Source of the DNA: Methanocaldococcus fervens AG86
GTDB lineage: Archaea; AGJL01; Methanococci; Methanococcales; Methanocaldococcaceae
Direction of reading: 5' to 3'
DNA length: 24,000 bases
Assembly: GCF_000023985.1 (NCBI RefSeq)
Contig: NC_013156.1
Coordinates: 274,363-298,362 of the forward strand
The position numbers were made by a program, and so were the translations under genes. Under the pieces are notes generated by a model. It saw only the letters and a program-made list of their open reading frames with translations, was not told the origin of the DNA and did no database searches. Below are positions 2 to 11,562 of this stretch, piece by piece; positions within the stretch are counted from its first letter, which is position 1; every line of letters starts with the position of its first letter.

Positions 2-889
2 CCAATTTCATGGCAGTTCATAATCCCAGCAGAATACGTTCCAAAACTAATTGAAAAGATTCAAGAGAAATGCAATAAAAACTTCAAATGGATTTATGGA
101 AAACTGCCATTGCATATTGGAATAATCATCCAACATTATAAAAGTCCATTATACATTGGAATAAAGGCTTTAAGAAAAATTAGAAGGGATTTATATAGTT
201 TAGAAGATATTAAAACAAAAATTGATGGAAAGTCATTAAAATCAATACAGAAAGAGCTTTATTCTAAATATGTTAGGGGAGAAGAATTAGCAAATAACAC
301 TGAAGAATATTACTCTCTCTATGAATGGGGAGGAGATAATGAAACATACCAATTCTATCTAAAACCAGATGAAAACAGCTTAAAATGGATTACTACAACG
401 AATGGAAAAGATAATCCAACATTCTACATCTATCCAAACACCTTCGATTTTGAGATTTTAGATTCAAATGTTAGAAGGAATGATATTGAATACTACAGAG
501 GAAAGAGAGTCCTACCATTAAAATCTAACAGACCATACACTTTAGAAGATTGGAAGAAATTTATTAAATTCAAAGAAATCTTTGAAAATAAACCTTCAAA
601 ACTTCAAAAATTGGTTAATATAATTTATAAATGCTTAGAAGATTGGGACAATAAATATGATGACTCAATAAGCCAATTCTTAGATACAAGTTTCATAAAT
701 GTCTTAGAATTGAACAAAAAATCCAACAAAGAGGTAATTGAGAAATTATGTGTGATATTTGATATTAGTTTAGAGGATAAAGACTTAGAAAAATTCAGAA
801 ATGAGCTAATAAATAAAATAGATAGGAAAAAGATGCTAATGTTCATAGATATGTTTGAATTCTGGCATAAGGGATTAAAAGCTGTATAA
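2..889 (+). CDS. cas10: Cas10-family type III large subunit, C-terminal ~295 aa (5' end lies outside the window)
   Basis: The frame is open from nt 2, so the tracked TTG at 110 is not the real start. PISWQFIIPAEYVPKLIEKIQEKCNKNFKWIYGKLPLHIGIIIQHYKSPLYIGIKALRKI resembles the Cas10 Palm2 segment that follows GGDD (pattern ..LP....a..i...F.......SaGi.i.h.k.PL......A..lL). A helical C-terminal region follows. The gene is first in a tightly packed, co-oriented set with RAMP and small-subunit genes. Confidence 0.55.
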   Translation, partial: PISWQFIIPAEYVPKLIEKIQEKCNKNFKWIYGKLPLHIGIIIQHYKSPLYIGIKALRKIRRDLYSLEDIKTKIDGKSLKSIQKELYSKYVRGEELANNTEEYYSLYEWGGDNETYQFYLKPDENSLKWITTTNGKDNPTFYIYPNTFDFEILDSNVRRNDIEYYRGKRVLPLKSNRPYTLEDWKKFIKFKEIFENKPSKLQKLVNIIYKCLEDWDNKYDDSISQFLDTSFINVLELNKKSNKEVIEKLCVIFDISLEDKDLEKFRNELINKIDRKKMLMFIDMFEFWHKGLKAV

Positions 890-902
890 GTGGGGGATAG
901 TC

Positions 903-1069
903 ATGTATTATTTTGTCTATGGTTCAAATATGAGTGAAGAAAGGATAAAAGAGAACTGAAAAAATCCAAAATTTGTAGATATTGGTTATATCAAAGATTA
1001 TAAGTTTGTTTATGATGGTTATTCCAGAGGTTGGGAAGGTGCTGTAGCCAACATAATACCAAAAAAATG
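903..1069 (+). pseudogene. N-terminal half of a GGCT/AIG2-like (gamma-glutamylcyclotransferase fold) domain, interrupted by TGA 957-959 and out of frame with the downstream ORF at the A7 run 1061-1067
   Basis: ATG 903 lies 13 nt after the cas10 stop and is preceded by GTGGGGGAT (RBS-like). Translation gives MYYFVYGSNMSEERIKEN*KNPKFVDIGYIKDYKFVYDGYSRGWEGAVANIIPKK. The YGSN motif and the W.G.VA.I.P block are GGCT-family hallmarks. The domain continues in the -1 frame as part of ORF 1031-2446. Confidence 0.6.
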
Positions 1070-2446
1070 GAGAAATTGTGTGGGGGTGTTATATATGAAA
1101 TCTCCGAAGATGACTTAAAAGCTTTAGATAGACAGGAAGGATACCCTATAACTTATGGTAGAAAAGAAATAACGGTTTTCTGTGTAAATAAGAATATAGA
1201 GATTAAAGCTTATGTTTATTTCAGAGAGGGAGAGCCTATTGAAAACCTACAAAAGAATACGTTAACTTGTGTAAAAGATGCTAAGGAGCATGGAATACCA
1301 GAAGATTATATTAAAAATGTGCTAATGGGTGGTAGTATGACAAATAATAATTTTGTAAATGAAATAAACGTTTATGCAGTAGCGACAGACCCAATATATA
1401 TTGGAACTGGAGGTTATACAATTGGGAGGGTTGATAACACTATTGTAAGAGACCCAATAACAAAAATCCCAAAAATTCCAGGGTCAAGTTTGGCTGGAAC
1501 TTGGAGATATTATGTGGCTTTGAAATTGCAGGGATATTTTAAAGATGATTATAGAGTTGATAAGAGCAAAAGAAAGGAGAAAAAGATTGAAGAATTATTT
1601 GAATTGGAAAATAATGAAGATAAAGATTGGGTTTTATTCGAAGGAAACAGATATGCTGGAATAAAATGTGCTGGACAAGATGATTTACCAAATATTGATT
1701 ATGAAAGTGCAAAGGATGAAAAAACCGGACATTGTGGAAGATGTATTGTTTGTAAAGCATTTGGTTTCTCTAAAAAAGATGTATCATGGCAAGGATTGAT
1801 TTATTTCTCCGATTTAAATATCTTATTCTTCCCAGTTTATACAAGATTTGGGGTTAAGTGGATAACTTCTAAAAGAATTTTAAAAGAAGCTGGTTTATTA
1901 AATGGAGATTTTGACGAAGAAAAAAATGTTGTTTTTGCACTTAAAGAAATAGAAAAAGAAATAGAAGATGATAAGAAAAAAGGGCATATAAATTTAGGTT
2001 GGCTGTATTTGCCTTATAAAGTTGATGGCATAAAAATCAATTTAGGCAAAATACAAAACTTTGGAATTGATGAAAATGATATAATAATCGTTCCAGACAA
2101 CCTAATTTCTCAAATAATCAACTCAAACTTAGAGGTTAGAACTTCTGTTTCAATAGATCCAATTACAGGAACAGCAAAAGAAGGAGCGTTATTCACATCA
2201 GAGGCAATCCCAAGAGGAACAATATTTTATGGAAAAATAAGAATCTTTGACAAAAAGCCATTTGAGGAAATTAACGATAATAAAACTAACAAACTAAAAC
2301 CATTACCAACAATAAAACAAATAAAAGATGCATTAGAAGATTCAAAAATATTCTTTGAGACATTGGGAATTGGGGGAATGACAACAAGAGGTTTTGGAAG
2401 ATTGAAGATTGAATTGTTTGATGAAAATGGAAAAAAGTTTGAATAA
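1031..2446 (+). CDS. cas7: Cmr4-like Cas7 RAMP (type III backbone subunit) with the C-terminal half of a GGCT-like domain at its N-terminus; internal ATGs at 1325 and 1337 could give a RAMP-only product
   Basis: GGCT part: EKLCGGVIYEISEDDLKALDRQEGYPITYGRKEI...AKEHGIPEDYIKNVL. RAMP part: DPIYIGTGGYTIGRVDNTIVRDPITKIPKIPGSSLAG. Zn-knuckle-like HCGRCIVCKAFGF. Cmr4-type thumb LFFPVYTRFGVKWITSKRIL. Also RTSVSIDPITGTAKEGALFTSEAIPRGTIFYG and the G-rich loop LGIGGMTTRGFGRLKIEL. Confidence 0.7.
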   Translation: MGRCCSQHNTKKMEKLCGGVIYEISEDDLKALDRQEGYPITYGRKEITVFCVNKNIEIKAYVYFREGEPIENLQKNTLTCVKDAKEHGIPEDYIKNVLMGGSMTNNNFVNEINVYAVATDPIYIGTGGYTIGRVDNTIVRDPITKIPKIPGSSLAGTWRYYVALKLQGYFKDDYRVDKSKRKEKKIEELFELENNEDKDWVLFEGNRYAGIKCAGQDDLPNIDYESAKDEKTGHCGRCIVCKAFGFSKKDVSWQGLIYFSDLNILFFPVYTRFGVKWITSKRILKEAGLLNGDFDEEKNVVFALKEIEKEIEDDKKKGHINLGWLYLPYKVDGIKINLGKIQNFGIDENDIIIVPDNLISQIINSNLEVRTSVSIDPITGTAKEGALFTSEAIPRGTIFYGKIRIFDKKPFEEINDNKTNKLKPLPTIKQIKDALEDSKIFFETLGIGGMTTRGFGRLKIELFDENGKKFE

Positions 2447-2463
2447 CCAAACTGGTGGTTCTA

Positions 2464-2925
2464 ATGGATAAACTGGAATACAAAATTAATGAAGTTGCTT
2501 TCAATATTGCCCAGATTTTAGATAAAAATGAAATAAATAAATTGTTGGGAGTTTTGGCAAATGATGGAGTTTATGCTATGTGGGTTTATGCATTGGATAA
2601 AATTAAAATTGAAGATAAAAAAGATAGAATAGGACTACTTATAAATCAAATACTTAATTTTTCAGATGCATTTCCAATCTTAAAAGAAAATCAGGAAGAA
2701 ATTGAAAGAAAAAATGAAAAAATAAAAGGACTTTTAGAAAAAGAAAAATTAAACGATGAAGGAAAAATAGAACTAAAAAATAAAATAAAAGAGAGAAATA
2801 AGATTATCTTAGAGATTTTCAAAGAACTTTCAAAAGATATTGATAATTTACTATTCTTCAAAGAAATCTTAGAAAGAGTATTAATCTTAGCAAGATATCA
2901 TGCAAAGGCATTAGGTGACGATTAA
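2464..2925 (+). CDS. Small alpha-helical protein, probable type III small subunit (Cas11, Cmr5/Csm2-like)
   Basis: About 153 aa that look all-helical. The position is between Cas7 and a RAMP gene. GGTGG lies 5 nt upstream of ATG 2464. The C-terminal LLFFKEILERVLILARYHAKAL resembles the conserved C-terminal helix of Cmr5-type subunits. The call rests on weak sequence signal and is mainly contextual. Confidence 0.4.
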   Translation: MDKLEYKINEVAFNIAQILDKNEINKLLGVLANDGVYAMWVYALDKIKIEDKKDRIGLLINQILNFSDAFPILKENQEEIERKNEKIKGLLEKEKLNDEGKIELKNKIKERNKIILEIFKELSKDIDNLLFFKEILERVLILARYHAKALGDD

Positions 2926-3731
2926 TGACTTGGTATAAAATAGTTTTAGAACAAGAACAACCAATTCACATTGGATATAAAAGATATGGTGTATTGGCAG
3001 AGACAAGAATATTTATTCCTGGGCAAACGATGTGGGGGGCTTTAACAAAAGCATATAATTTAATGAAAGGAAACTCTTTAAACAGCAATCAAGAATTATT
3101 TGAACAAATAACATGCTTTTATCCTTCCTTTGATAAAGAAAATATACTAAAACCAAATTTCAAAAATGGAGAGTTTCACTTAGGAGATCTATCAGAAAAA
3201 GAATTTAGATTATTATTTGTTGATTCTTTCATATCAACGGCAATACTACCCGAAACAAGAACAGCAAAGGATGAATCATTGCATGAAATTGAATTTATCT
3301 TACCAAAACCAAAAAAAGCATTAGAAAATACTGAATTATGGAAAAAAATAACTGAAGTGGGATATAAAAATGAAAACTTAAAATGGATTGGATTAGTTTG
3401 TCTTAATGATGATAGTTTAAAAGATGAATTGGAAAACTTAAAAATCTTTATTGGTGGGGATGTAAGATATGGATACGGTTTAATGAAAGTAATGAAAGTA
3501 ATTAAAATAGTAGAGGATAATATATTAGAAGAATTTAATGTTAAGAACAATAAAATAACTAAAGGAAAGATGATAAATCCCTCTGGAAAAAGGTTATTAA
3601 ACTATTTAGAATTCAATCCAACAATTAAATTTGAAGGAAAACTCGAATTACTACCAGAATTTGACTTCTATAATAAAAGAAAAATAACTAATGCAAAATA
3701 CTACATTATTCCAGGAAGTAAAATTATTTAA
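2925..3731 (+). CDS. RAMP-superfamily protein, Cas5 group (Cmr3/Csm4-like) by position and motifs
   Basis: The start overlaps the upstream stop (TAATG), suggesting translational coupling. N-terminal QPIHIGYKRYGVLAETRIFIPGQTMWGALTKAY fits the RAMP pattern h.hG....(x)..IPgsT..GAL. A C-terminal glycine loop FIGGDVRYGYGLMKV is present. Confidence 0.45.
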   Translation: MTWYKIVLEQEQPIHIGYKRYGVLAETRIFIPGQTMWGALTKAYNLMKGNSLNSNQELFEQITCFYPSFDKENILKPNFKNGEFHLGDLSEKEFRLLFVDSFISTAILPETRTAKDESLHEIEFILPKPKKALENTELWKKITEVGYKNENLKWIGLVCLNDDSLKDELENLKIFIGGDVRYGYGLMKVMKVIKIVEDNILEEFNVKNNKITKGKMINPSGKRLLNYLEFNPTIKFEGKLELLPEFDFYNKRKITNAKYYIIPGSKII

Positions 3732-3742
3732 AATCTAAAAAT

Positions 3743-4963
3743 TTAGAAAGTATTTACTTTCCCCTCAACAATCATTTTTTGGACTTCCATAATGTTATCT
3801 AACCATTTATTAGCTATCTCTTTTGCCTTTGGCTCAATGTCCTTTATATCATAACCATTTTCAGTTATAATTTCTATATCCAATGCTTTTGGTTCATTAA
3901 TTGGCTTACCTATTTGGCTTAATATTCTTACATAACACTCCTTAACTCCCTCTAATTTAGCAATATCTGATGCAATTAAGTTAGCTAAGATGTTATAAAT
4001 CTTACCAACGTGGTTTACTGGGTTTTTACCACTTGCTGCCTCCATACTCATAGGTCTGAATGGAGTTATTAATCCATTAACTCTATTTCCTCTCCCAACT
4101 GAACCATCATCCCCCATCTCTGCTGAAGTTCCAGTAACTGTTAAATAAACACTTTCTCTTTCATAATCATCTGCGGTGTTTATATTTATCTCAACCTCAT
4201 ATCCATCAGCTATCTTTTTAGCTAAATCTTCAACTTTTTCTTTTACTTTCTTAATAACCTCTTTATATTCTTCAACATTCTTAACATACTTATCAACAAC
4301 AGCCATAGCAATGGTTAAGGTTATTTTCTTCCCTTCTCTTAAACCCATAACTTTTATATCCTCTCCTACAGCAGGAATTTCTTTCTTTAACTCATCACTA
4401 TTTAAAAATCTCTCTGTTTCTAAAACCAATCTCTCTGTTGTTGATAATGGAGCATAACCTACTCCAAATGATGTATCGTTAGCTAAAGGAACTTCATTCT
4501 TTTGCCTTTCAAAGACATCAACTAAATCCATACTTCCTTGTCCAATTCTACAGTCGATAATTACATCCTTATCAACGTCAACATTTCTTAAAACTTTCTT
4601 TAAATATTCTTTAGCTGCTTTAACTGCAGTAGTACCAACTGGAAGTTTTATAATTTCGTTTTTCTCTTTATCTAAAATTTCCATTGTTGCCCTACCTGAC
4701 AACAAAATATAAATAGGGCTTACCATTACTCCTCCTCCAAATTTAGGATATGCGTGCCCACCTACAAGCTCAACTTGGTCTGTGTTGTGGTGTAAAATAG
4801 TTCCAAATCTTTCCATATACATCTTACACAAAGCTCTACTAACGCTCTCAGCAATACCGTCACAAATTGAATCTGGATGCCCCAAACCCTTTCTTTCGAC
4901 GATTTCAGTTGGTCTTTCCTCAATTGGTTCAACGTTTAATTTTTTTACAATTATGTTTCTCAT
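3743..4963 (-). CDS. mat: Archaeal-type S-adenosylmethionine synthetase (methionine adenosyltransferase)
   Basis: [36 protein letters not shown]... at 406 aa matches the archaeal MAT family (M. jannaschii MJ1208 type). I chose ATG 4963, which has GGTGAT upstream, over the tracked TTG at 4981. Confidence 0.95.
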
Positions 4964-5080
4964 CCCTATCACCGCATCCAATTATCATAAGTAAAATGAT
5001 AAAATAAATTTTTTATATTTAAAGTTAATCCTTCAATAAAAAAGAAAACTAAAAACTCAAATAAATTAGAAAAATTTCTA

Positions 5081-5761
5081 TTAAATTTTCTTTACCATCC
5101 TTAACCAGTCTTTAACAACTTCTCTTTCCTCAAAACCCAACTTTTTATAAAATTCAATGGCATTTTTGTTCTCAACTCCAACCCACAACTCAACTATATT
5201 TCTCCCATTCTTTTTGGCATATCCAATAGCTTTGTTTATTAAAGCTGTTCCAATCCCTCTACCTCTAAAATCCGGATCAACGAAGATTTCATGTATTTCG
5301 GCAACTTCTCTCTTTTCTATATTGCTAATCCAATTACAATCACAGGCAATAAAGCCAACTGGTTTTCCATCAATTTCACATACAAAAAACCCATCTTCAT
5401 CTCTCTTCATCAACCATTTAAAATACCATCTTGCCCATTTTTTCTTTTTGTAATAGTATTTATCAAAACCCTTGTATGCTTTATAATATAGCTCAAGAAA
5501 GTCCTCCAAATCATCTTTAGTTACATTTCTTATTGTATACGGTTTTGTTAAGTTATAAACATTCATAGCCGCGTTTAAGCATCTAAAGAAATCATCCAAT
5601 ATTGATTTTAATGAACCTATAGAACGGGTTTTAACATACAATATAGGCTTTTTCTCACATTTTAAATTAATTTCAATATCCTCATTATTGTAATTATCAA
5701 CTTCTAGGCTTCTACAAACTTCTTTTGGAATATCCACGTGAAGTTTTAAATAAACCTTCAT
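5081..5761 (-). CDS. GNAT-family N-acetyltransferase with an N-terminal ~75-aa Pcc1-like domain
   Basis: GNAT motif A: EIFVDPDFRGRGIGTALINKAIGYAKKNG. The N-terminus MKVYLKLHVDIPKEVCRSLEVDNYN...ILYVKTRSIGSLKSILDDFFRCLNAAMNVYNL resembles Pcc1/CTAG (compare yeast Pcc1 ...FRSIDDRVLRVGVSSIIDSIKTIVEAMDVL). Confidence 0.8.
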   Translation of the reverse strand: MKVYLKLHVDIPKEVCRSLEVDNYNNEDIEINLKCEKKPILYVKTRSIGSLKSILDDFFRCLNAAMNVYNLTKPYTIRNVTKDDLEDFLELYYKAYKGFDKYYYKKKKWARWYFKWLMKRDEDGFFVCEIDGKPVGFIACDCNWISNIEKREVAEIHEIFVDPDFRGRGIGTALINKAIGYAKKNGRNIVELWVGVENKNAIEFYKKLGFEEREVVKDWLRMVKKI

Positions 5762-5828: not shown

Positions 5829-5904
5829 TGGTGCGCCGGCCGGGATTTGAACCCGGGTCGCTGGCTTGGAAGGCCAGAGTGATACCAGGCTACACCACCG
5901 GCGC
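5829..5904 (-). tRNA. tRNA-Gly (anticodon UCC), CCA encoded
   Basis: Reverse complement: GCGCCGGTGGTGTAGCCTGGTATCACTCTGGCCTTCCAAGCCAGCGACCCGGGTTCAAATCCCGGCCGGCGCACCA. Acceptor stem GCGCCGG/CCGGCGC. Anticodon stem CTGGC/GCCAG with loop CTTCCAA. T arm CCGGG-TTCAAAT-CCCGG. Confidence 0.93.
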
Positions 5905-5933: not shown

Positions 5934-6009
5934 TGGTGCGGCCTCCGGGATTTGAACCCGGGGTCCGGGCGTGGCAGGCCCGTGTGTTACCAGGCTACAC
6001 CAAGGCCGC
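5934..6009 (-). tRNA. tRNA-Gly (anticodon GCC), CCA encoded
   Basis: Reverse complement: GCGGCCTTGGTGTAGCCTGGTAACACACGGGCCTGCCACGCCCGGACCCCGGGTTCAAATCCCGGAGGCCGCACCA. Acceptor stem GCGGCCT/AGGCCGC. Anticodon stem CGGGC/GCCCG with loop CTGCCAC. It lies 29 nt upstream of the other tRNA-Gly, so the pair is probably co-transcribed. Confidence 0.93.
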
Positions 6010-7075: not shown

Positions 7076-8522
7076 CTTTCCATTCCGTTCCGGTCTGATT
7101 TTAACTAGAAGATTTGAAAATGTTTCAACTGTAGAGATTCAACCAAACTTTCCATTCCGTTCCGGTCTGATTTTAACAAGAGTGATGAAAAATGGTAGGA
7201 ATATTTTTTGATATACACTTTCCATTCCGTTCCGGTCTGATTTTAACGATTTTAACAGTTAAAAAATTAGTAAATGAAAGGTGAAAATACTTTCCATTCC
7301 GTTCCGGTCTGATTTTAACGTGTGTTTTCAGTTAATGAGGACTTTGCGCCTGCCACTTTCCATTCCGTTCCGGTCTGATTTTAACAACAAGAAAAGACGA
7401 TTTGAGAGAAGAGAGAGAAAGCTTTCCATTCCGTTCCGGTCTGATTTTAACAGTCACACTTGATTTTAAAGACCTTATAGCCTTCATCTTTCCATTCCGT
7501 TCCGGTCTGATTTTAACACCCCTCCTTCAGTCCTCAGCCATACAGGCTTCATCTTTCCATTCCGTTCCGGTCTGATTTTAACGTTATTGGAGGAACTGGG
7601 ATTGATTAAAGACCCTAAAACTTTCCATTCCGTTCCGGTCTGATTTTAACGTTATTGGAGGAACTGGGATTGATTAAAGACCCTAAAACTTTCCATTCCG
7701 TTCCGGTCTGATTTTAACGTAGTATATGCCAATAGTAAAACTAAATATCAAATGTCTTTCCATTCCGTTCCGGTCTGATTTTAACGTATATATCAGTGAA
7801 AAATGGCACTTTGGCAATTAAATCCTTTCCATTCCGTTCCGGTCTGATTTTAACCTTGCTCTTTTACATCCACTGGAAGCTCAGAATACTTTCCATTCCG
7901 TTCCGGTCTGATTTTAACTATGTTTAAAGTGGCGGGCTTGCTAATGGGGCTCGGAGCTTTCCATTCCGTTCCGGTCTGATTTTAACTTCAATATTATATA
8001 ATCTAATAATATTGCTGAGCTGTCTTTCCATTCCGTTCCGGTCTGATTTTAACCAATGCTTGGTAGTGCAAGAGCGGGTGCTTCAACTTTCTTTCCATTC
8101 CGTTCCGGTCTGATTTTAACTTATCAATATTCTGGCTCCCAAACTTATCAAACTCTTTCCATTCCGTTCCGGTCTGATTTTAACTAGAACCAATTGCAGG
8201 AGTAGGGGCAGCAATAGGTATCTTTCCATTCCGTTCCGGTCTGATTTTAACTTACAGGTTGGAATAATGAAGGAAAGATAAGAATTTACCTTTCCATTCC
8301 GTTCCGGTCTGATTTTAACCAATGGTTAAAAATAAGGTGAAATTATGAGGAAAGCCCTTTCCATTCCGTTCCGGTCTGATTTTAACCGATAACCGAAAAG
8401 TTTATATAGTAGAAAGTAAATAATCTTTCCATTCCGTTCCGGTCTGATTTTAACGACAACAAACAACATGAATACTCCTTTGATGACAACCGCTTTCCAT
8501 TCCGTTCCGGTCTGATTTTAAC
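7076..8522 (-). CRISPR. CRISPR array: 22 identical 30-nt repeats and 21 spacers (34-42 nt)
   Basis: The plus-strand repeat is CTTTCCATTCCGTTCCGGTCTGATTTTAAC. All 22 copies are exact when read by eye (first 7076-7105, last 8493-8522). The minus-strand form GTTAAAATCAGACCGGAACGGAATGGAAAG ends in ATGGAAAG, similar to the ATTGAAAG-type 8-nt crRNA 5' handle. The only long AT-rich non-coding flank lies on the right. Both points indicate minus-strand transcription. Spacers 7583-7620 and 7651-7688 are identical. Confidence 0.97.
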
Positions 8523-8916: not shown

Positions 8917-10182
8917 TTATTCTTCAGGAATTTTAGCCCTTTCAAAATGTTCTCTACCTTTAATTAAGCTCATTGTTGCATCTATCCCAACTTTTGCTGT
9001 TAATTTATTTTTCAAATCACTTGAAGGGTCTAAAGAAGAGCCTTTAGCTCCTGGAATTATGATTATATCTCTATCCCCCTGCACCCTTGTAGCTATTGCA
9101 TACTCAACATCATTTATATCAAATATATCTATGTCATCATCAACAACCACAACATGCTTTAAACTTGGATGAGATGCAAAAGCTGCCAATATAGCATTTT
9201 TTCCATCCCCCTCAGTTCTTTTTTGTATTTGCACCACAGCATGAAGCCAACAACAACCTCCTTCAGTTAAAACAACGTTTTTTACTGTAGGGACCGTATT
9301 TCTAACACCTTTTAATATTCTCGGCTCTTGAGGCATACCCATCAATGTTTTATGCTCAATCCCTCCAGGTAGTAAAGCATGGAATATTGGTTTTTCTTTT
9401 CTATAAAGCTTTTCTATTTTAATTATTGGCTGTTTTCTAACAATATCATAGGTTCCAGTTATATCTACAAAAGGCCCCTCATCATCCGTCTCTGGCATAA
9501 TTTTACCTTCAATAATGAACTCCGCTTCTGGAACTAATAAGCCGTTATCTAACTCAAAAACCTCCATTTCTCCCCCCAACAAAACAGAGGCAAATTTAAG
9601 CTCATCAAACGTTATATCAGCGGATGTAGAGCCAGCTAACAAAACAGCCGGATGAACCCCTATAACTATGGCAACATCCAAATAGCCCTTTTCATTTAAG
9701 GCTTTATTATATAAAAAGTGTAAATGCCTCTGCTCAACCATTCTTATAACCAAATGATTATCTTTAACTAAAATTCTATGAATGGATAAGTTGTAGCCAA
9801 AATCTTTATCATTTACAACAACAACTCCACTTGTTATATAAGGTCCGGCATCCTTTTCATAATAAGTTGGAATAGGCCAGTCTTTAATCTTCTCTGGACT
9901 TTCAACAATGTATTTTTCTTTCAATTTATTGTTTATCCTTAATTTTCCTTCCTTTTCTTTCTCCATTGCATTGAGCATAAAAAATATAAAATCCTCTTTT
10001 TTAACATTAAAAATCTTTGAGAGAGTTTCTCTACTGCAAAGATTACCAACAACTTCAAATCCATCTACATCTTTTATATAAACTGGTTTTCCATCATATT
10101 TTTTTAATATCCTTGAAATTCCAAACTTTTTATCGGCTTTCTCTATTATAATGGGGTTGAGCTTATTAATGATTTCTCTCAT
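8917..10182 (-). CDS. UbiD-family (prenylated-FMN dependent) decarboxylase; archaeal members of this size are assigned as anhydromevalonate phosphate decarboxylase
   Basis: 421 aa, with overall resemblance to the UbiD family (M. jannaschii MJ1133 type) across the ORF. The functional assignment is from memory of the archaeal mevalonate pathway literature and cannot be verified here. Confidence 0.75.
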   Translation of the reverse strand: MREIINKLNPIIIEKADKKFGISRILKKYDGKPVYIKDVDGFEVVGNLCSRETLSKIFNVKKEDFIFFMLNAMEKEKEGKLRINNKLKEKYIVESPEKIKDWPIPTYYEKDAGPYITSGVVVVNDKDFGYNLSIHRILVKDNHLVIRMVEQRHLHFLYNKALNEKGYLDVAIVIGVHPAVLLAGSTSADITFDELKFASVLLGGEMEVFELDNGLLVPEAEFIIEGKIMPETDDEGPFVDITGTYDIVRKQPIIKIEKLYRKEKPIFHALLPGGIEHKTLMGMPQEPRILKGVRNTVPTVKNVVLTEGGCCWLHAVVQIQKRTEGDGKNAILAAFASHPSLKHVVVVDDDIDIFDINDVEYAIATRVQGDRDIIIIPGAKGSSLDPSSDLKNKLTAKVGIDATMSLIKGREHFERAKIPEE

Positions 10183-10262
10183 GATACCACCAAAGTTTTA
10201 TATATTTCTTAGCCAATTTTAATATTAATCTTATTCTCTGCCTAAATATTTAAAGTGATAAC

Positions 10263-10610
10263 ATGCACAAAGAACAGTTAATGAAACTTCATCAATTTTT
10301 TGTTTATGTTGTAAAAGAAATTGTAAATGATGATTTTGGAAATAGAAATGATGAATGCAAAAAATTGCTTGAAATTTATGAGATGCTAGATATTCGTCCT
10401 CATCACATTCATCGACTTAAAAGCGAGCAAAAAGCGGCAATATTGTTATTATCTGCATGTGTTGCCAGTTATTTAGCCGATAATATGGATAATGTTCCCA
10501 AAAACTTAGCTAAAAAACTTGAAGAAAACGCTTTTAAACATCTAAACAGTTGTAAGAAAAACATTATTATATTGGAAGACGAAAATAATGGTAAAAATGT
10601 TGAGGAATAA
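10263..10610 (+). CDS. UPF0058-family small archaeal protein (function unknown)
   Basis: [20 protein letters not shown]...[26 protein letters not shown] matches my recollection of the UPF0058 pattern (MxKdELixLHxLL ... V.P.HiH.sK.EHK.Ai). A homologue (MJ1132) occupies the same position in M. jannaschii. Confidence 0.6.
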
Positions 10611-10629
10611 TTTAAAGGGTGATATTTTT

Positions 10630-11562
10630 ATGTTTAATCCACAAAAATTTATTGAAGAGGCTGTGGAAGAAATAAAACAGCAAATTGGAGACAGAAAGGC
10701 AATAATTGCTTTAAGTGGAGGAGTAGATAGTTCTGTTGCTGCTGTTTTAACTCACAAAGCTATTGGAAACAAATTAACTGCTGTTTTTGTTGATACTGGA
10801 TTGATGAGAAAGGGAGAGAGGGAAGAAGTTGAAAAAACATTTAGAGATAACTTAGGATTAAATTTAATAGTTGTAGATGCAAAAGATAGGTTTTTAGAGG
10901 CGTTAAAAGGAGTTAAAGATCCTGAAGAAAAGAGAAAAATTATAGGTAAATTGTTTATTGATGTTTTTGAAGAGATTGCTGAAGAAATAAAGGCAGAGGT
11001 TTTAGTTCAGGGAACCATAGCTCCAGATTGGATTGAAACACAGGGAAAGATAAAAAGCCACCACAATGTAGCTCTACCTCATGGGATGGTTTTAGAGGTT
11101 GTTGAGCCATTGAGGGAGCTTTATAAAGATGAAGTTAGATTGTTGGCAAAAGAGCTTGGATTACCAGATAGTATTGTACATAGGCAACCATTCCCAGGTC
11201 CAGGTTTAGCTGTTAGGGTTTTAGGAGAAGTTACTGAAGAGAAGCTAAATATTTGTAGAGAGGCCAATGCAATAGTTGAGGAAGAGGTTAAAAAAGCCAA
11301 CTTAGATAAAGAGTTGTGGCAATACTTTGCTGTTGTTTTGGATTGTAAGGCAACAGGGGTTAAAGGGGATGAGAGAGAATACAACTGGATTGTTGCTTTA
11401 AGAATGGTCAAATCATTAGATGCAATGACTGCCCACGTTCCAGAGATTCCATTTGATTTGTTGAAAAGAATTAGTAAGAGGATTACATCAGAGATTCCAA
11501 ATGTTGCAAGAGTTGTTTTTGATATAACAGACAAACCACCAGCAACAATTGAATTTGAGTAA
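10630..11562 (+). CDS. guaA: GMP synthase (glutamine-hydrolysing) subunit B, ATP pyrophosphatase subunit
   Basis: PP-loop [10 protein letters not shown] and C-terminal [14 protein letters not shown] chose ATG 10630 ([16 protein letters not shown]) because the tracked start at 10588 overlaps the upstream gene. Confidence 0.92.

What the first reader, a model, noticed from the sequence alone, without database searches (positions are those of the whole stretch)
903..1339. GGCT/AIG2-like (gamma-glutamylcyclotransferase fold) enzymatic domain fused to the N-terminus of a type III Cas7 (Cmr4-like) backbone subunit
Seen in sequence: from ATG 903 the translation reads MYYFVYGSNMSEERIKEN*KNPKFVDIGYIKDYKFVYDGYSRGWEGAVANIIPKK. 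After a -1 frame change it continues (M)EKLCGGVIYEISEDDLKALDRQEGYPITYGRKEITVFCVNKNIEIKAYVYFREGEPI...AKEHGIPEDYIKNVL. This runs with no stop into MGGSMTNNNF...DPIYIGTGGYTIGRVDNTIVRDPITKIPKIPGSSLAG, a canonical RAMP N-terminus. Established knowledge: three signatures define the GGCT/AIG2-like fold. They are an N-terminal YGSN(L/M), a central W.GgvA.IvP..g..v.GvlYei...dl..LD..EG (the catalytic Glu lies in the human GGCT block LDEQEG), and a C-terminal GlP..Y. Enzymes of this fold cyclise gamma-glutamyl amides or isopeptides to 5-oxoproline. Inference: I know of no described type III subunit carrying this domain. Cas7 is present in several copies along the crRNA, so this would place several copies of a small-molecule or isopeptide-cleaving enzyme on the interference complex. 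Speculatively, target-RNA binding could gate attack on a gamma-glutamyl compound (methanogens carry gamma-glutamyl tails on F420 and pterins) or on an isopeptide-linked protein. That would be an effector mechanism distinct from cOA signalling.
Basis: partly seen in the sequence, partly recalled or inferred. Interest (0 to 1): 0.85.

Follow-up and report, generated by a model that had tools for sequence, protein, structure and literature searches.

The report
Dead GGCT gene abutting Cas7
The apparent enzyme-Cas7 fusion is the broken remnant of a small, separate gamma-glutamylcyclotransferase gene between cas10 (csx11) and cas7 in a type III-C CRISPR operon; a 1-bp deletion reads it into cas7, so no enzyme-decorated Cas7 exists here.

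Summary
The GGCT-like sequence at 903-1335 is real (Pfam GGACT 54-63 bits). It is not a domain of Cas7. Compared with intact orthologues (M. vulcanius, 148 aa; metagenomic P0121, 144 aa), the window copy (M. fervens AG86) has six disabling lesions: TGC>TGA at an invariant Cys, two 1-bp insertions, two 1-bp deletions and one 2-bp deletion. The last deletion lies 10 nt before the cas7 ATG (1337). It moves the native stop out of frame, which merges the remnant with the cas7 frame. All Cas7 orthologues start at MTNNNF/MTNKDF. None of the 120 listed Cas7 relatives, apart from M. fervens' own entry, and none of the 135 GGCT relatives has both domains. GenBank and RefSeq annotate the chimeric ORF (459/456 aa), which creates a false AIG2+RAMP architecture.

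In M. vulcanius the intact GGCT gene sits inside the III-C operon: a 12-nt gap after csx11 and an 11-nt overlap with cas7. It is under purifying selection (dN/dS 0.12). It is absent from every other fetched III-C locus and has decayed independently in a second lineage. Its nearest relatives (49-55% identity) sit between mod and res in type III restriction-modification operons. That association is the only potentially new lead. The fusion itself is an artefact of gene decay plus annotation.

The parts
2..889 (+). 3' part of csx11, the divergent Cas10 analogue of subtype III-C. The frame is open from the window edge.
   Evidence: Frame 2 is open from base 2 to the stop at 887-889 and is collinear with the C-terminus of M. 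vulcanius Csx11. TIGR02682 scores 116 bits on model positions 763-1005 of 1007. The full-length M. vulcanius orthologue scores 550 bits against a cut-off of 249.
903..1335 (+). Pseudogene of a stand-alone GGCT/AIG2-family gene. The ancestral product was about 144 aa, ending MGW* at TAG 1333-1335.
   Evidence: Pfam GGACT and AIG2_2 hits. Alignment to the intact M. vulcanius and L087 genes shows six lesions. There are lineage-specific changes at invariant residues: A5V, C19*, G126D.
957..959 (+). Nonsense codon TGA replacing TGC/TGT. This is Cys19, invariant in 38-45 family members.
   Evidence: No SECIS or other Rfam hit in the window apart from two tRNAs.
1061..1067 (+). A7 run carrying a +1 A insertion (A6 in orthologues): frameshift 1.
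1082..1086 (+). G5 run carrying a +1 G insertion (G4 in orthologues): frameshift 2. Between the two insertions the third frame reads the ancestral NGEIVWG.
1240..1241 (+). Site of a 1-bp deletion (ATT|GAAAAC here, ATTGGAAAAC in orthologues): frameshift 3.
1264..1265 (+). Site of a 2-bp deletion (GTTA|ACT here, GTTGATACT in orthologues): frameshift 4. It is not in a homopolymer.
1326..1329 (+). Site of a 1-bp deletion (AAT|GGG here, AxTGGGG in orthologues): frameshift 5. It puts the native stop TAG 1333-1335 out of frame and joins the remnant to the cas7 frame.
1337..2446 (+). cas7 (Cmr4-like backbone subunit), 369 aa, starting MTNNNFVNEINVYA. It is intact and carries the GRVDN motif.
   Evidence: TIGR02580 scores 117 bits against a cut-off of 87. 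Orthologues P0002 (90% identity) and P0003 (85%) begin at the same Met. The catalytic role of the Asp in GRVDN rests on general knowledge of Cmr4/Csm3.
1067..2446 (+). The database-annotated chimeric ORF: ACV24117.1/WP_015790857.1, 459 aa from ATG 1067. WP_169301542.1, 456 aa, starts 9 nt later.
   Evidence: It carries precomputed Pfam AIG2_2 + GGACT + RAMPs, which is the false architecture.
2455..2925 (+). Candidate small subunit (Cas11/Cmr5 position in the operon), 156 aa.
   Evidence: Assigned by position only. No Pfam or NCBIfam hit. A gene occupies the same position in relatives: 122 aa in M. vulcanius, 168 aa in the MAG contigs.
2925..3731 (+). Cas5/Cmr3-position RAMP, 268 aa.
   Evidence: Pfam RAMPs 23.6 bits. 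There are only weak hits to the Csx10 model here and the Csm4 model in the M. vulcanius orthologue, both below cut-off.

Best explanation
Window 903-1335 is a non-functional, decaying copy of a small independent GGCT-family gene. In an ancestor of several Methanocaldococcus lineages this gene was inserted between csx11 (cas10) and cas7 of a subtype III-C CRISPR-Cas operon.

In M. fervens it has accumulated one nonsense mutation and five frameshifting indels. The 3'-most indel, 10 nt upstream of the cas7 start, shifted the native stop out of frame. The tail of the dead gene therefore reads through into cas7.

Cas7 is made from its own ATG at 1337, as in every orthologue (inferred). It carries no GGCT domain. 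The 'fusion' exists only as an annotation artefact (a 456/459-aa database protein).

Shown: the lesions, the orthologous gene boundaries, the intact separate gene in relatives, and the absence of fusions elsewhere.
Inferred: the actual translation start in vivo, and that no product of the remnant is functional.
For: (1) Lesions. DNA alignment to the intact M. vulcanius gene (L005:9565-10011) and to L087 shows TGC>TGA, +1, +1, -1, -2 and -1. Restoring the indels gives a 144-codon ORF ending MGW* at TAG 1333-1335.

(2) Pfam scores rise stepwise as the shifts are repaired: AIG2_2 39.6, then 46.4, then 60.4 bits.

(3) Window-lineage-specific substitutions hit invariant or near-invariant family positions: A5V, C19*, G126D.

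(4) Cas7 orthologues (P0002 90% identity, P0003 85%, and more than 100 others) start at MTNNNF/MTNKDF or an equivalent. They cover only the Cas7 part of the chimeric query. Only M. fervens' own entry carries GGCT Pfam domains.

(5) All 120 listed GGCT relatives (of 135 hits) are 89-210 aa, and none carries a RAMP domain.

(6) In M. vulcanius the GGCT gene is separate: 148 aa, with a 12-nt gap after csx11 and an 11-nt overlap with cas7 in a different frame.

(7) A second lineage (MAG contigs L001-L004 and L007) carries an independent 1-bp deletion that splits the gene into 73- and 51-aa pieces.

(8) The flanking csx11, cas7, small-subunit and cas5-like genes in the window have uninterrupted frames.
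Against: - Only one assembly of M. fervens AG86 could be examined. The look-up for an independent assembly failed.
- Four of the five indels lie in short homopolymer runs, where older sequencing chemistries make errors.
- dN/dS of the window copy against M. vulcanius is still low (0.20), so inactivation is recent, or some lesions are artefacts.
- No transcript or protein data exist to prove that translation starts at 1337.
- An upstream start (ATG 1067) could in principle produce a Cas7 with an 90-aa N-terminal extension that is an inert half of a GGCT fold.
Confidence: 0.9

Rival explanations
1. The lesions are sequencing or assembly errors. M. fervens really has an intact, separate GGCT gene like M. 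vulcanius. This would still not be a fusion.
For: Four of the five indels sit in homopolymer runs: A7, G5, and the G runs after 1240 and 1326. Only one assembly is available. dN/dS against M. vulcanius is only 0.20.
Against: The TGC>TGA substitution and the 2-bp deletion in GTTGATACT are not homopolymer-type errors. About 3.7 kb of flanking cas genes in the same window show no frameshift. There are substitutions at invariant residues A5 and G126. An independent frameshift in the same gene appears in at least four separate metagenome assemblies of a sister lineage, so loss of this gene does occur in nature.
Confidence: 0.06
2. A real GGCT-Cas7 fusion protein is made by recoding: selenocysteine at TGA 957-959 plus programmed frameshifts.
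For: The TGA replaces an invariant Cys. Methanocaldococcus species decode UGA as selenocysteine (general knowledge). The last frame is open into cas7.
Against: It would need five separate frameshift events, none of which is conserved in orthologues with plain intact ORFs. No SECIS or other RNA-family hit lies in the region. With the indels restored, the GGCT frame terminates before cas7. No such fusion exists among relatives.
Confidence: 0.01
3. The annotated 456/459-aa chimeric ORF is translated. The C-terminal half of the GGCT fold (about 90 aa) has been co-opted as a non-enzymatic N-terminal extension of Cas7.
For: The ORF is open from 1031, and ATG 1067 is in frame. GenBank and RefSeq annotate it this way.
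Against: The fragment lacks the N-terminal YGSN strand and half of the barrel. It also contains two further frameshifts relative to the ancestral sequence (after 1240 and after 1264), so about 8 of its residues are out-of-frame sequence. The orthologous start at 1337 is conserved. No relative has any N-terminal extension. The extension arose from a single-base deletion found only in this lineage.
Confidence: 0.03

Closest known systems
Human gamma-glutamylcyclotransferase (GGCT/C7orf24; PDB 2PN7, 2I5T, 3CRY, 2RBH)
   Same: The family profile aligns over the full length to human GGCT at E=9e-30, including FAYGSN and the LDxxEG block. The AlphaFold model of the intact orthologue P0121 (pLDDT 97.3) superposes at TM 0.90, rmsd 1.4-1.7 A, 32% identity.
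   Different: The window copy is a pseudogene. The prokaryotic subfamily has an invariant Cys19 (an RC motif) that human GGCT lacks at the aligned position. The substrate is unknown. Methanogens have no glutathione gamma-glutamyl cycle (general knowledge).
Subtype III-C CRISPR-Cas (MTH326-like; Csx11-type Cas10 with an inactivated cyclase)
   Same: The gene order Cmr1-like, Cmr6-like, Csx11, Cmr4-like, small subunit, Cas5-like is seen in the M. vulcanius orthologous operon. Csx11 is above its equivalog cut-off there. The subtype definition comes from PMC3973734 and PMC3150331.
   Different: In Methanocaldococcus an extra GGCT gene sits between csx11 and cmr4. In at least 55 of 60 homologous loci the two genes abut within about 20 bp.
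Type III restriction-modification operons with an embedded GGCT gene (Mod-GGCT-Res; metagenomic loci L088-L093, L175, L181-L183)
   Same: Their GGCT proteins are the closest relatives of the Methanocaldococcus gene (49-55% identity). They likewise sit mid-operon, with small gaps or overlaps, inside a defence system. PADLOC identifies MTase_III and REase_III.
   Different: The host system is a DNA methylase/helicase-nuclease pair, not a CRISPR effector. The module has co-diverged (Res 55-76% identity, GGCT 65-78%), which suggests long residence. I found no published description.
Genuine enzymatic fusions or insertions on type III backbone proteins (for example Cas7-11/gRAMP of III-E, and insertions in Cas7 loops)
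   Same: Some Cas7 orthologues of this very family carry large internal insertions: P0009 599 aa, P0091 490 aa, P0097 and P0102 about 460 aa.
   Different: Those are uninterrupted ORFs with insertions in an internal loop and have no GGCT similarity. The window's N-terminal 'domain' is a broken neighbouring gene.

Membership tests
GGCT/AIG2-like fold family (Pfam GGACT PF06094 / AIG2_2 PF13772) | Profile match above the curated cut-off | tested here: met
   For the conceptually repaired remnant, GGACT scores 53.8-62.8 bits (cut-off 22.8) and AIG2_2 scores 39.6-60.4 bits (cut-off 27). The unrepaired pieces also hit a family HMM.
GGCT/AIG2-like fold family (Pfam GGACT PF06094 / AIG2_2 PF13772) | N-terminal YGSN(L/M) substrate-binding motif and the catalytic Glu in the LDxxEG block | tested here: met
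   The window reads FVYGSNM and LDRQEGYP. These align with human FAYGSNL and LDEQEG. E78 is invariant in alignments A3 and A4. However, Ala5 of the FAYGSN motif is mutated to Val in the window.
GGCT/AIG2-like fold family (Pfam GGACT PF06094 / AIG2_2 PF13772) | GGCT three-dimensional fold | tested here: met
   Tested on the intact orthologue P0121 (89% identical to the repaired remnant). pLDDT 97.3; TM 0.90 to 2I5T/3CRY. Not meaningful for the broken window copy itself.
GGCT/AIG2-like fold family (Pfam GGACT PF06094 / AIG2_2 PF13772) | An intact ORF able to encode the whole domain | tested here: not met
   One nonsense codon and five frameshifting indels relative to intact orthologues.
GGCT/AIG2-like fold family (Pfam GGACT PF06094 / AIG2_2 PF13772) | Cyclotransferase activity (5-oxoproline release) | not testable with these tools
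   Needs an enzyme assay of an intact orthologue, for example WP_015733368.1 of M. vulcanius.
Type III Cas7 backbone subunit (Cmr4, TIGR02580) | Equivalog model above cut-off and the RAMP G-rich/GRVDN motifs | tested here: met
   TIGR02580 scores 117.3 bits against a cut-off of 87, and Pfam RAMPs scores 82 bits. GRVDN and the C-terminal GGMTTRGFGR are invariant in A2.
Subtype III-C CRISPR-Cas | Csx11-type Cas10 analogue (TIGR02682) with III-B-like gene synteny | tested here: met
   The window holds only the C-terminal 296 aa (116 bits, model positions 763-1005). The full-length orthologue scores 550 bits against a cut-off of 249, with Cmr1/Cmr6/Cmr4-like neighbours. Definition from PMC3973734.
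   A stop at 957-959 and frame changes. The ancestral GGCT stop at 1333-1335 precedes the cas7 ATG.
   Of the 120 best Cas7 relatives, only M. fervens' own annotation has GGCT domains. All 120 listed GGCT relatives are 89-210 aa without a RAMP domain. In M. vulcanius and L087 the two genes are separate.
Archaeal selenoprotein gene (TGA = Sec) | A SECIS element and an otherwise intact ORF | tested here: not met
   No Rfam family other than two tRNAs reaches threshold in the window. Five additional frameshifts are present.

The most novel reading that the evidence does not exclude
The intact form of this gene may be a genuine, undescribed accessory enzyme of prokaryotic defence operons rather than a passenger. 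It is found in M. vulcanius and in many vent metagenome contigs.

The same GGCT clade is embedded mid-operon in three settings:
- type III-C CRISPR (csx11-GGCT-cmr4);
- a co-diverging family of type III R-M systems (mod-GGCT-res);
- more distantly, Hma (hmaB-GGCT-hmaC), a IIG-methylase/PLD-SNF2 system, and next to PDC-S68.

It might cyclise off a gamma-glutamyl-linked group from a phage-borne DNA or protein modification, or from a small-molecule cofactor or inhibitor, and so assist restriction or interference. The M. fervens pseudogene would then record recent loss of that accessory function.
Probability: 0.2. Interest if true: 0.65.

Novelty: not a real feature. Interest (0 to 1): 0.22.

Why it matters
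As proposed, a Cas7 filament decorated with several copies of a small-molecule enzyme would have been a new effector principle for type III CRISPR. It is not real.

The practical value of this result is threefold.

1. It flags a false domain architecture (AIG2/GGACT + RAMP) that is present in GenBank, RefSeq and UniProt (ACV24117.1, WP_015790857.1, WP_169301542.1, C7P6D5). That architecture could mislead domain-fusion ('Rosetta stone') inference.

2. It documents a gene caught in the act of being lost from a CRISPR operon.

3. It yields a modest lead: a GGCT clade that lives inside defence operons (type III R-M, Hma, III-C CRISPR). Its role is unknown and, as far as the searchable literature shows, undescribed.

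Tried and rejected
(a) Selenocysteine or programmed-frameshift recoding. Rejected: five unconserved indels and no SECIS.

(b) GGCT as a general accessory of III-C systems. Rejected: in the genome scan it was found only in the Methanocaldococcus locus (L007) among 80 homologous loci. In the 60 loci where the csx11 end is visible, csx11 and cas7 abut within about 20 bp in at least 55. The exceptions carry other inserts: a DUF6602 gene in L008 and an IS200/RAYT-like gene in L063. This suggests the junction simply tolerates insertions.

(c) A functional link to the adjacent SAM synthetase (3743-4981, minus strand). Rejected: in M. vulcanius the neighbour is a thermosome subunit instead.

(d) An independent M. 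fervens assembly to verify the lesions. Not obtained: L006 covers only csx10/MAT, and the exact-protein look-up was empty.

(e) The broad GGCT family as defence-enriched. Not supported: of 78 immediate same-strand neighbours of more distant relatives, only about 5-6 hit PADLOC at E<=1e-20. Most contexts are metabolic or envelope-related, such as acyl-CoA dehydrogenase, DUF748/AsmA, Amidoligase_2 + thioester adhesins, and GatB.

(f) Phage and plasmid copies (30-36% identity). The two phage contexts inspected were uninformative; the plasmid hits were only listed, not inspected.

(g) Literature searches for GGCT/AIG2 together with CRISPR, R-M or defence found nothing relevant.

(h) My initial III-D label, based on a weak Csx10 hit, was corrected to III-C.
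Full report
**What is in the sequence**

The window comes from Methanocaldococcus fervens AG86. The best protein match is that organism's own entry, and the cluster members are ACV24117.1/WP_015790857.1 (459 aa) and WP_169301542.1 (456 aa).

From ATG 903 the translation reads MYYFVYGSNMSEERIKEN and stops at TGA 957-959. GGCT-like sequence then continues in the same frame, moves to other frames, and finally lies in the frame of ORF 1031-2446. That frame runs without a stop into a RAMP protein.

The C-terminal 373 aa is a Cmr4-type Cas7 (TIGR02580 117 bits against a cut-off of 87; Pfam RAMPs 82 bits). The raw observation and the domain identities therefore hold.

**The gene is broken in six places**

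I noticed that the third frame reads NGEIVWG between the A-run and the G-run. This is the canonical '..g..vWGvlyei' block. Applying two shifts instead of one raised AIG2_2 to 46.4 bits. Two further shifts around GEPI-KPTKEYV raised it to 60.4 bits.

I then aligned the window DNA to the intact M. vulcanius gene, to an intact metagenomic gene (L087/P0121, 89% identical to the repaired protein) and to a MAG lineage. This pins down six lesions:
- C>A at 959, turning Cys19 (TGC/TGT) into TGA.
- +1 A in the A7 run at 1061-1067.
- +1 G in the G5 run at 1082-1086.
- -1 G after 1240.
- -2 bp after 1264.
- -1 G after 1326.

Cys19 is invariant in the 38- and 45-member family alignments. The window lineage also has private substitutions at the invariant Ala5 (A5V, inside FAYGSN) and the near-invariant Gly126 (G126D).

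With the indels restored, the ORF ends ...EDYIKNVLMGW* at TAG 1333-1335, one base before the cas7 ATG at 1337. The absence of a stop between 'GGCT' and 'Cas7' is therefore the result of the last single-base deletion.

**Cas7 is a separate gene**

The closest Cas7 orthologues are P0002 (90% identity, 378 aa) and M. vulcanius P0003 (85%, 362 aa). Over a hundred further relatives from thermophilic bacteria and archaea are also listed. All begin at MTNNNF/MTNKDF or an equivalent and match only the Cas7 part of the chimeric query. Only M. fervens' own entry carries GGCT Pfam domains.

A search with the GGCT part alone returned 135 proteins. The 120 listed are 89-210 aa with only GGACT and AIG2_2 domains.

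In M. vulcanius M7 the GGCT gene is an intact, separate 148-aa ORF (L005:9565-10011). It lies 12 nt after csx11 and overlaps cas7 (10001-11089) by 11 nt in a different frame. On contig L087 the intact 144-aa gene ends 1 nt before cas7.

The database proteins of 456 and 459 aa are annotations of the accidental chimeric ORF.

**Context: a subtype III-C operon**

The upstream frame (2-889) is the C-terminus of Csx11. The full M. vulcanius orthologue scores 550 bits on TIGR02682, against a cut-off of 249. It is flanked by Cmr1-like and Cmr6-like RAMPs upstream, and by Cmr4-like Cas7, a small protein and a Cas5-like RAMP downstream.

Csx11 is the divergent Cas10 analogue that defines subtype III-C (PMC3973734). 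Makarova et al. call it an inactivated Cas10 subfamily (PMC3150331). In the window, csx11 (as far as it is visible), cas7, the small ORF and the cas5-like gene are all uninterrupted. The decay is specific to the GGCT gene.

**How far the GGCT-type III linkage extends**

A scan of one genome per GTDB species with a Cas7 alignment returned 80 homologous loci. An HMM of the GGCT family run over all six-frame translations found the gene only in Methanocaldococcus loci: M. vulcanius, the MAG lineage and the window.

In 60 loci where the end of csx11 could be located, csx11 and cas7 abut within about 20 bp in at least 55. The exceptions, apart from the GGCT-bearing Methanocaldococcus MAG locus L007, carry other material:
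- A 247-aa DUF6602 gene in a Methanococci MAG (L008).
- An IS200/RAYT-like gene in a Desulfobacterales MAG (L063).
- An unexamined 197-bp gap in L028.

The junction thus tolerates insertions, and GGCT is one lineage-restricted insert.

Where intact, the gene is constrained. dN/dS between M. vulcanius and L087 is 0.12, and most members of its 90%-identity cluster are full-length at 143-149 aa. It has nevertheless been lost twice. M. fervens has six lesions. The MAG lineage has an independent 1-bp deletion, seen in several separate assemblies, and a relaxed pattern of 10 non-synonymous to 11 synonymous private changes.

**Where the gene came from**

Four of the closest non-Methanocaldococcus relatives (49-55% identity: P0122, P0124, P0135, P0154) lie directly between the mod and res genes of type III restriction-modification operons, with small gaps or overlaps. 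PADLOC confirms MTase_III and REase_III.

These four modules are orthologous and have co-diverged: Res 55-76% identity, GGCT 65-78%, with the same closest pair in both. One also has an MNT/HEPN pair inserted. Another lies next to Cas6 and type III genes.

More distant relatives show mixed contexts:
- HmaB methylase-GGCT-HmaC (L149, L133).
- PLD-SNF2 helicase + type IIG methylase + GGCT (L103).
- GGCT + PDC-S68 (L139).
- Most others sit in non-defence contexts: acyl-CoA dehydrogenases, DUF748/AsmA, Amidoligase_2 with thioester adhesins, and GatB.
- Phage genomes also carry copies at 30-36% identity.

Literature searches found no description of GGCT/AIG2 genes in CRISPR or R-M operons.

**The enzyme family**

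The family profile matches human GGCT (2PN7 and related entries) at E=9e-30 over its full length, aligning FAYGSN and the LDxxEG glutamate. An AlphaFold model of P0121 (pLDDT 97.3, pTM 0.91) superposes on human GGCT at TM 0.90 and 1.4-1.7 A. GGACT, ChaC and YkqA are more distant. Intact relatives are very probably active cyclotransferases of unknown substrate. The window copy cannot be.

**Alternatives**

- Sequencing error. It cannot be excluded for the four homopolymer indels. It does not explain the nonsense substitution, the 2-bp deletion or the substitutions at invariant sites. It would in any case restore a separate gene, not a fusion.
- Recoding (Sec plus frameshifting). It would need five unconserved shifts, and there is no SECIS.
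- Translation of the annotated chimeric ORF. This would add an inert, partly out-of-frame half-domain, and no orthologue has such an extension.

**Verdict**

The fusion is an artefact of pseudogenisation plus automated annotation, so interest in the finding as stated is low. The residual lead is a GGCT clade embedded in defence operons, including an intact copy in the M. vulcanius III-C operon. It is real but narrow, and its function is unknown. I put about 0.2 on it being a true defence accessory.

Noticed in passing
window 7076-8522: CRISPR array of 22 copies of a 30-nt repeat (CTTTCCATTCCGTTCCGGTCTGATTTTAAC on the + strand), with spacers of about 34-42 nt. One repeat-spacer unit is exactly duplicated (7553-7620 = 7621-7688). 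It lies about 3.3 kb from the III-C genes.
   Followed up: no
window 5829-5904 and 5934-6009 (- strand): Two tandem tRNA-Gly genes (anticodons TCC and GCC) between the acetyltransferase gene and the ScpA-like ORF.
   Followed up: no
window 3743-4981 (- strand): The archaeal SAM synthetase gene is convergent with the end of the III-C operon, and also in the MAG loci L001-L004. In M. vulcanius the neighbour is a thermosome subunit, so the adjacency is not conserved and is probably coincidental.
   Followed up: partly
L008:1716-2459; L063:1284-1808: Two other III-C loci carry different genes at the same csx11|cas7 junction. One is a 247-aa DUF6602 protein (70 bits) that overlaps cas7 by 14 nt. 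The other is an IS200/RAYT-like gene. This suggests the junction is an insertion-tolerant spot.
   Followed up: partly
P0009 (599 aa), P0091 (490 aa), P0097/P0102 (about 460 aa), P0004 (420 aa): Cas7 orthologues of this family carry large insertions in the variable loop between the YYVAL and FEGNR blocks. The P0009 insert contains a PD-(D/E)XK-looking motif by eye (PDIVIH...VIIEIKR), but no Pfam hit was obtained. These would be real examples of extra modules on the backbone subunit.
   Followed up: partly
window about 1650-1760 (Cas7 residues C111, H132, C133, C136, C139 in A2 numbering): An invariant Cys/His cluster (KCAGQD...GHCGRCIVCK) in all 17 aligned Cas7 orthologues suggests a zinc-binding knuckle in this Cmr4-like subunit.
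   Followed up: no
L088-L093, L175, L181-L183: A family of type III R-M operons has a GGCT gene between mod and res, and the three genes have co-diverged. L175 also has an MNT/HEPN pair inserted between GGCT and res. In L181 and L182 the operon is followed by Cas6 and type III CRISPR genes.
   Followed up: partly
L149:3937-11249; L133; L103:455-7426; L139:1644-5915: More distant GGCT relatives sit inside or next to other defence systems: HmaB-GGCT-...-HmaC; PLD-SNF2 helicase + type IIG methylase + GGCT; and GGCT + PDC-S68.
   Followed up: partly
L001/L002/L007 around 5213-5337: In one MAG lineage csx11 itself is split into 938- and 283-aa pieces, while sister contigs L003 and L004 have an intact 1263-aa gene. 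The same lineage has the frameshifted GGCT gene.
   Followed up: no
L184:4866-6334 (also L185, L186): Two tandem GGCT paralogues (145 and 118 aa) lie directly upstream of a QueC-like gene in a flagellated bacterium's contig.
   Followed up: no
L121, L134, L135, L137, L172, L173 (human-gut metagenome contigs): A recurrent trio: Amidoligase_2 (317 aa), then GGCT, then a very large thioester-domain/SpaA adhesin of about 1500 aa.
   Followed up: no
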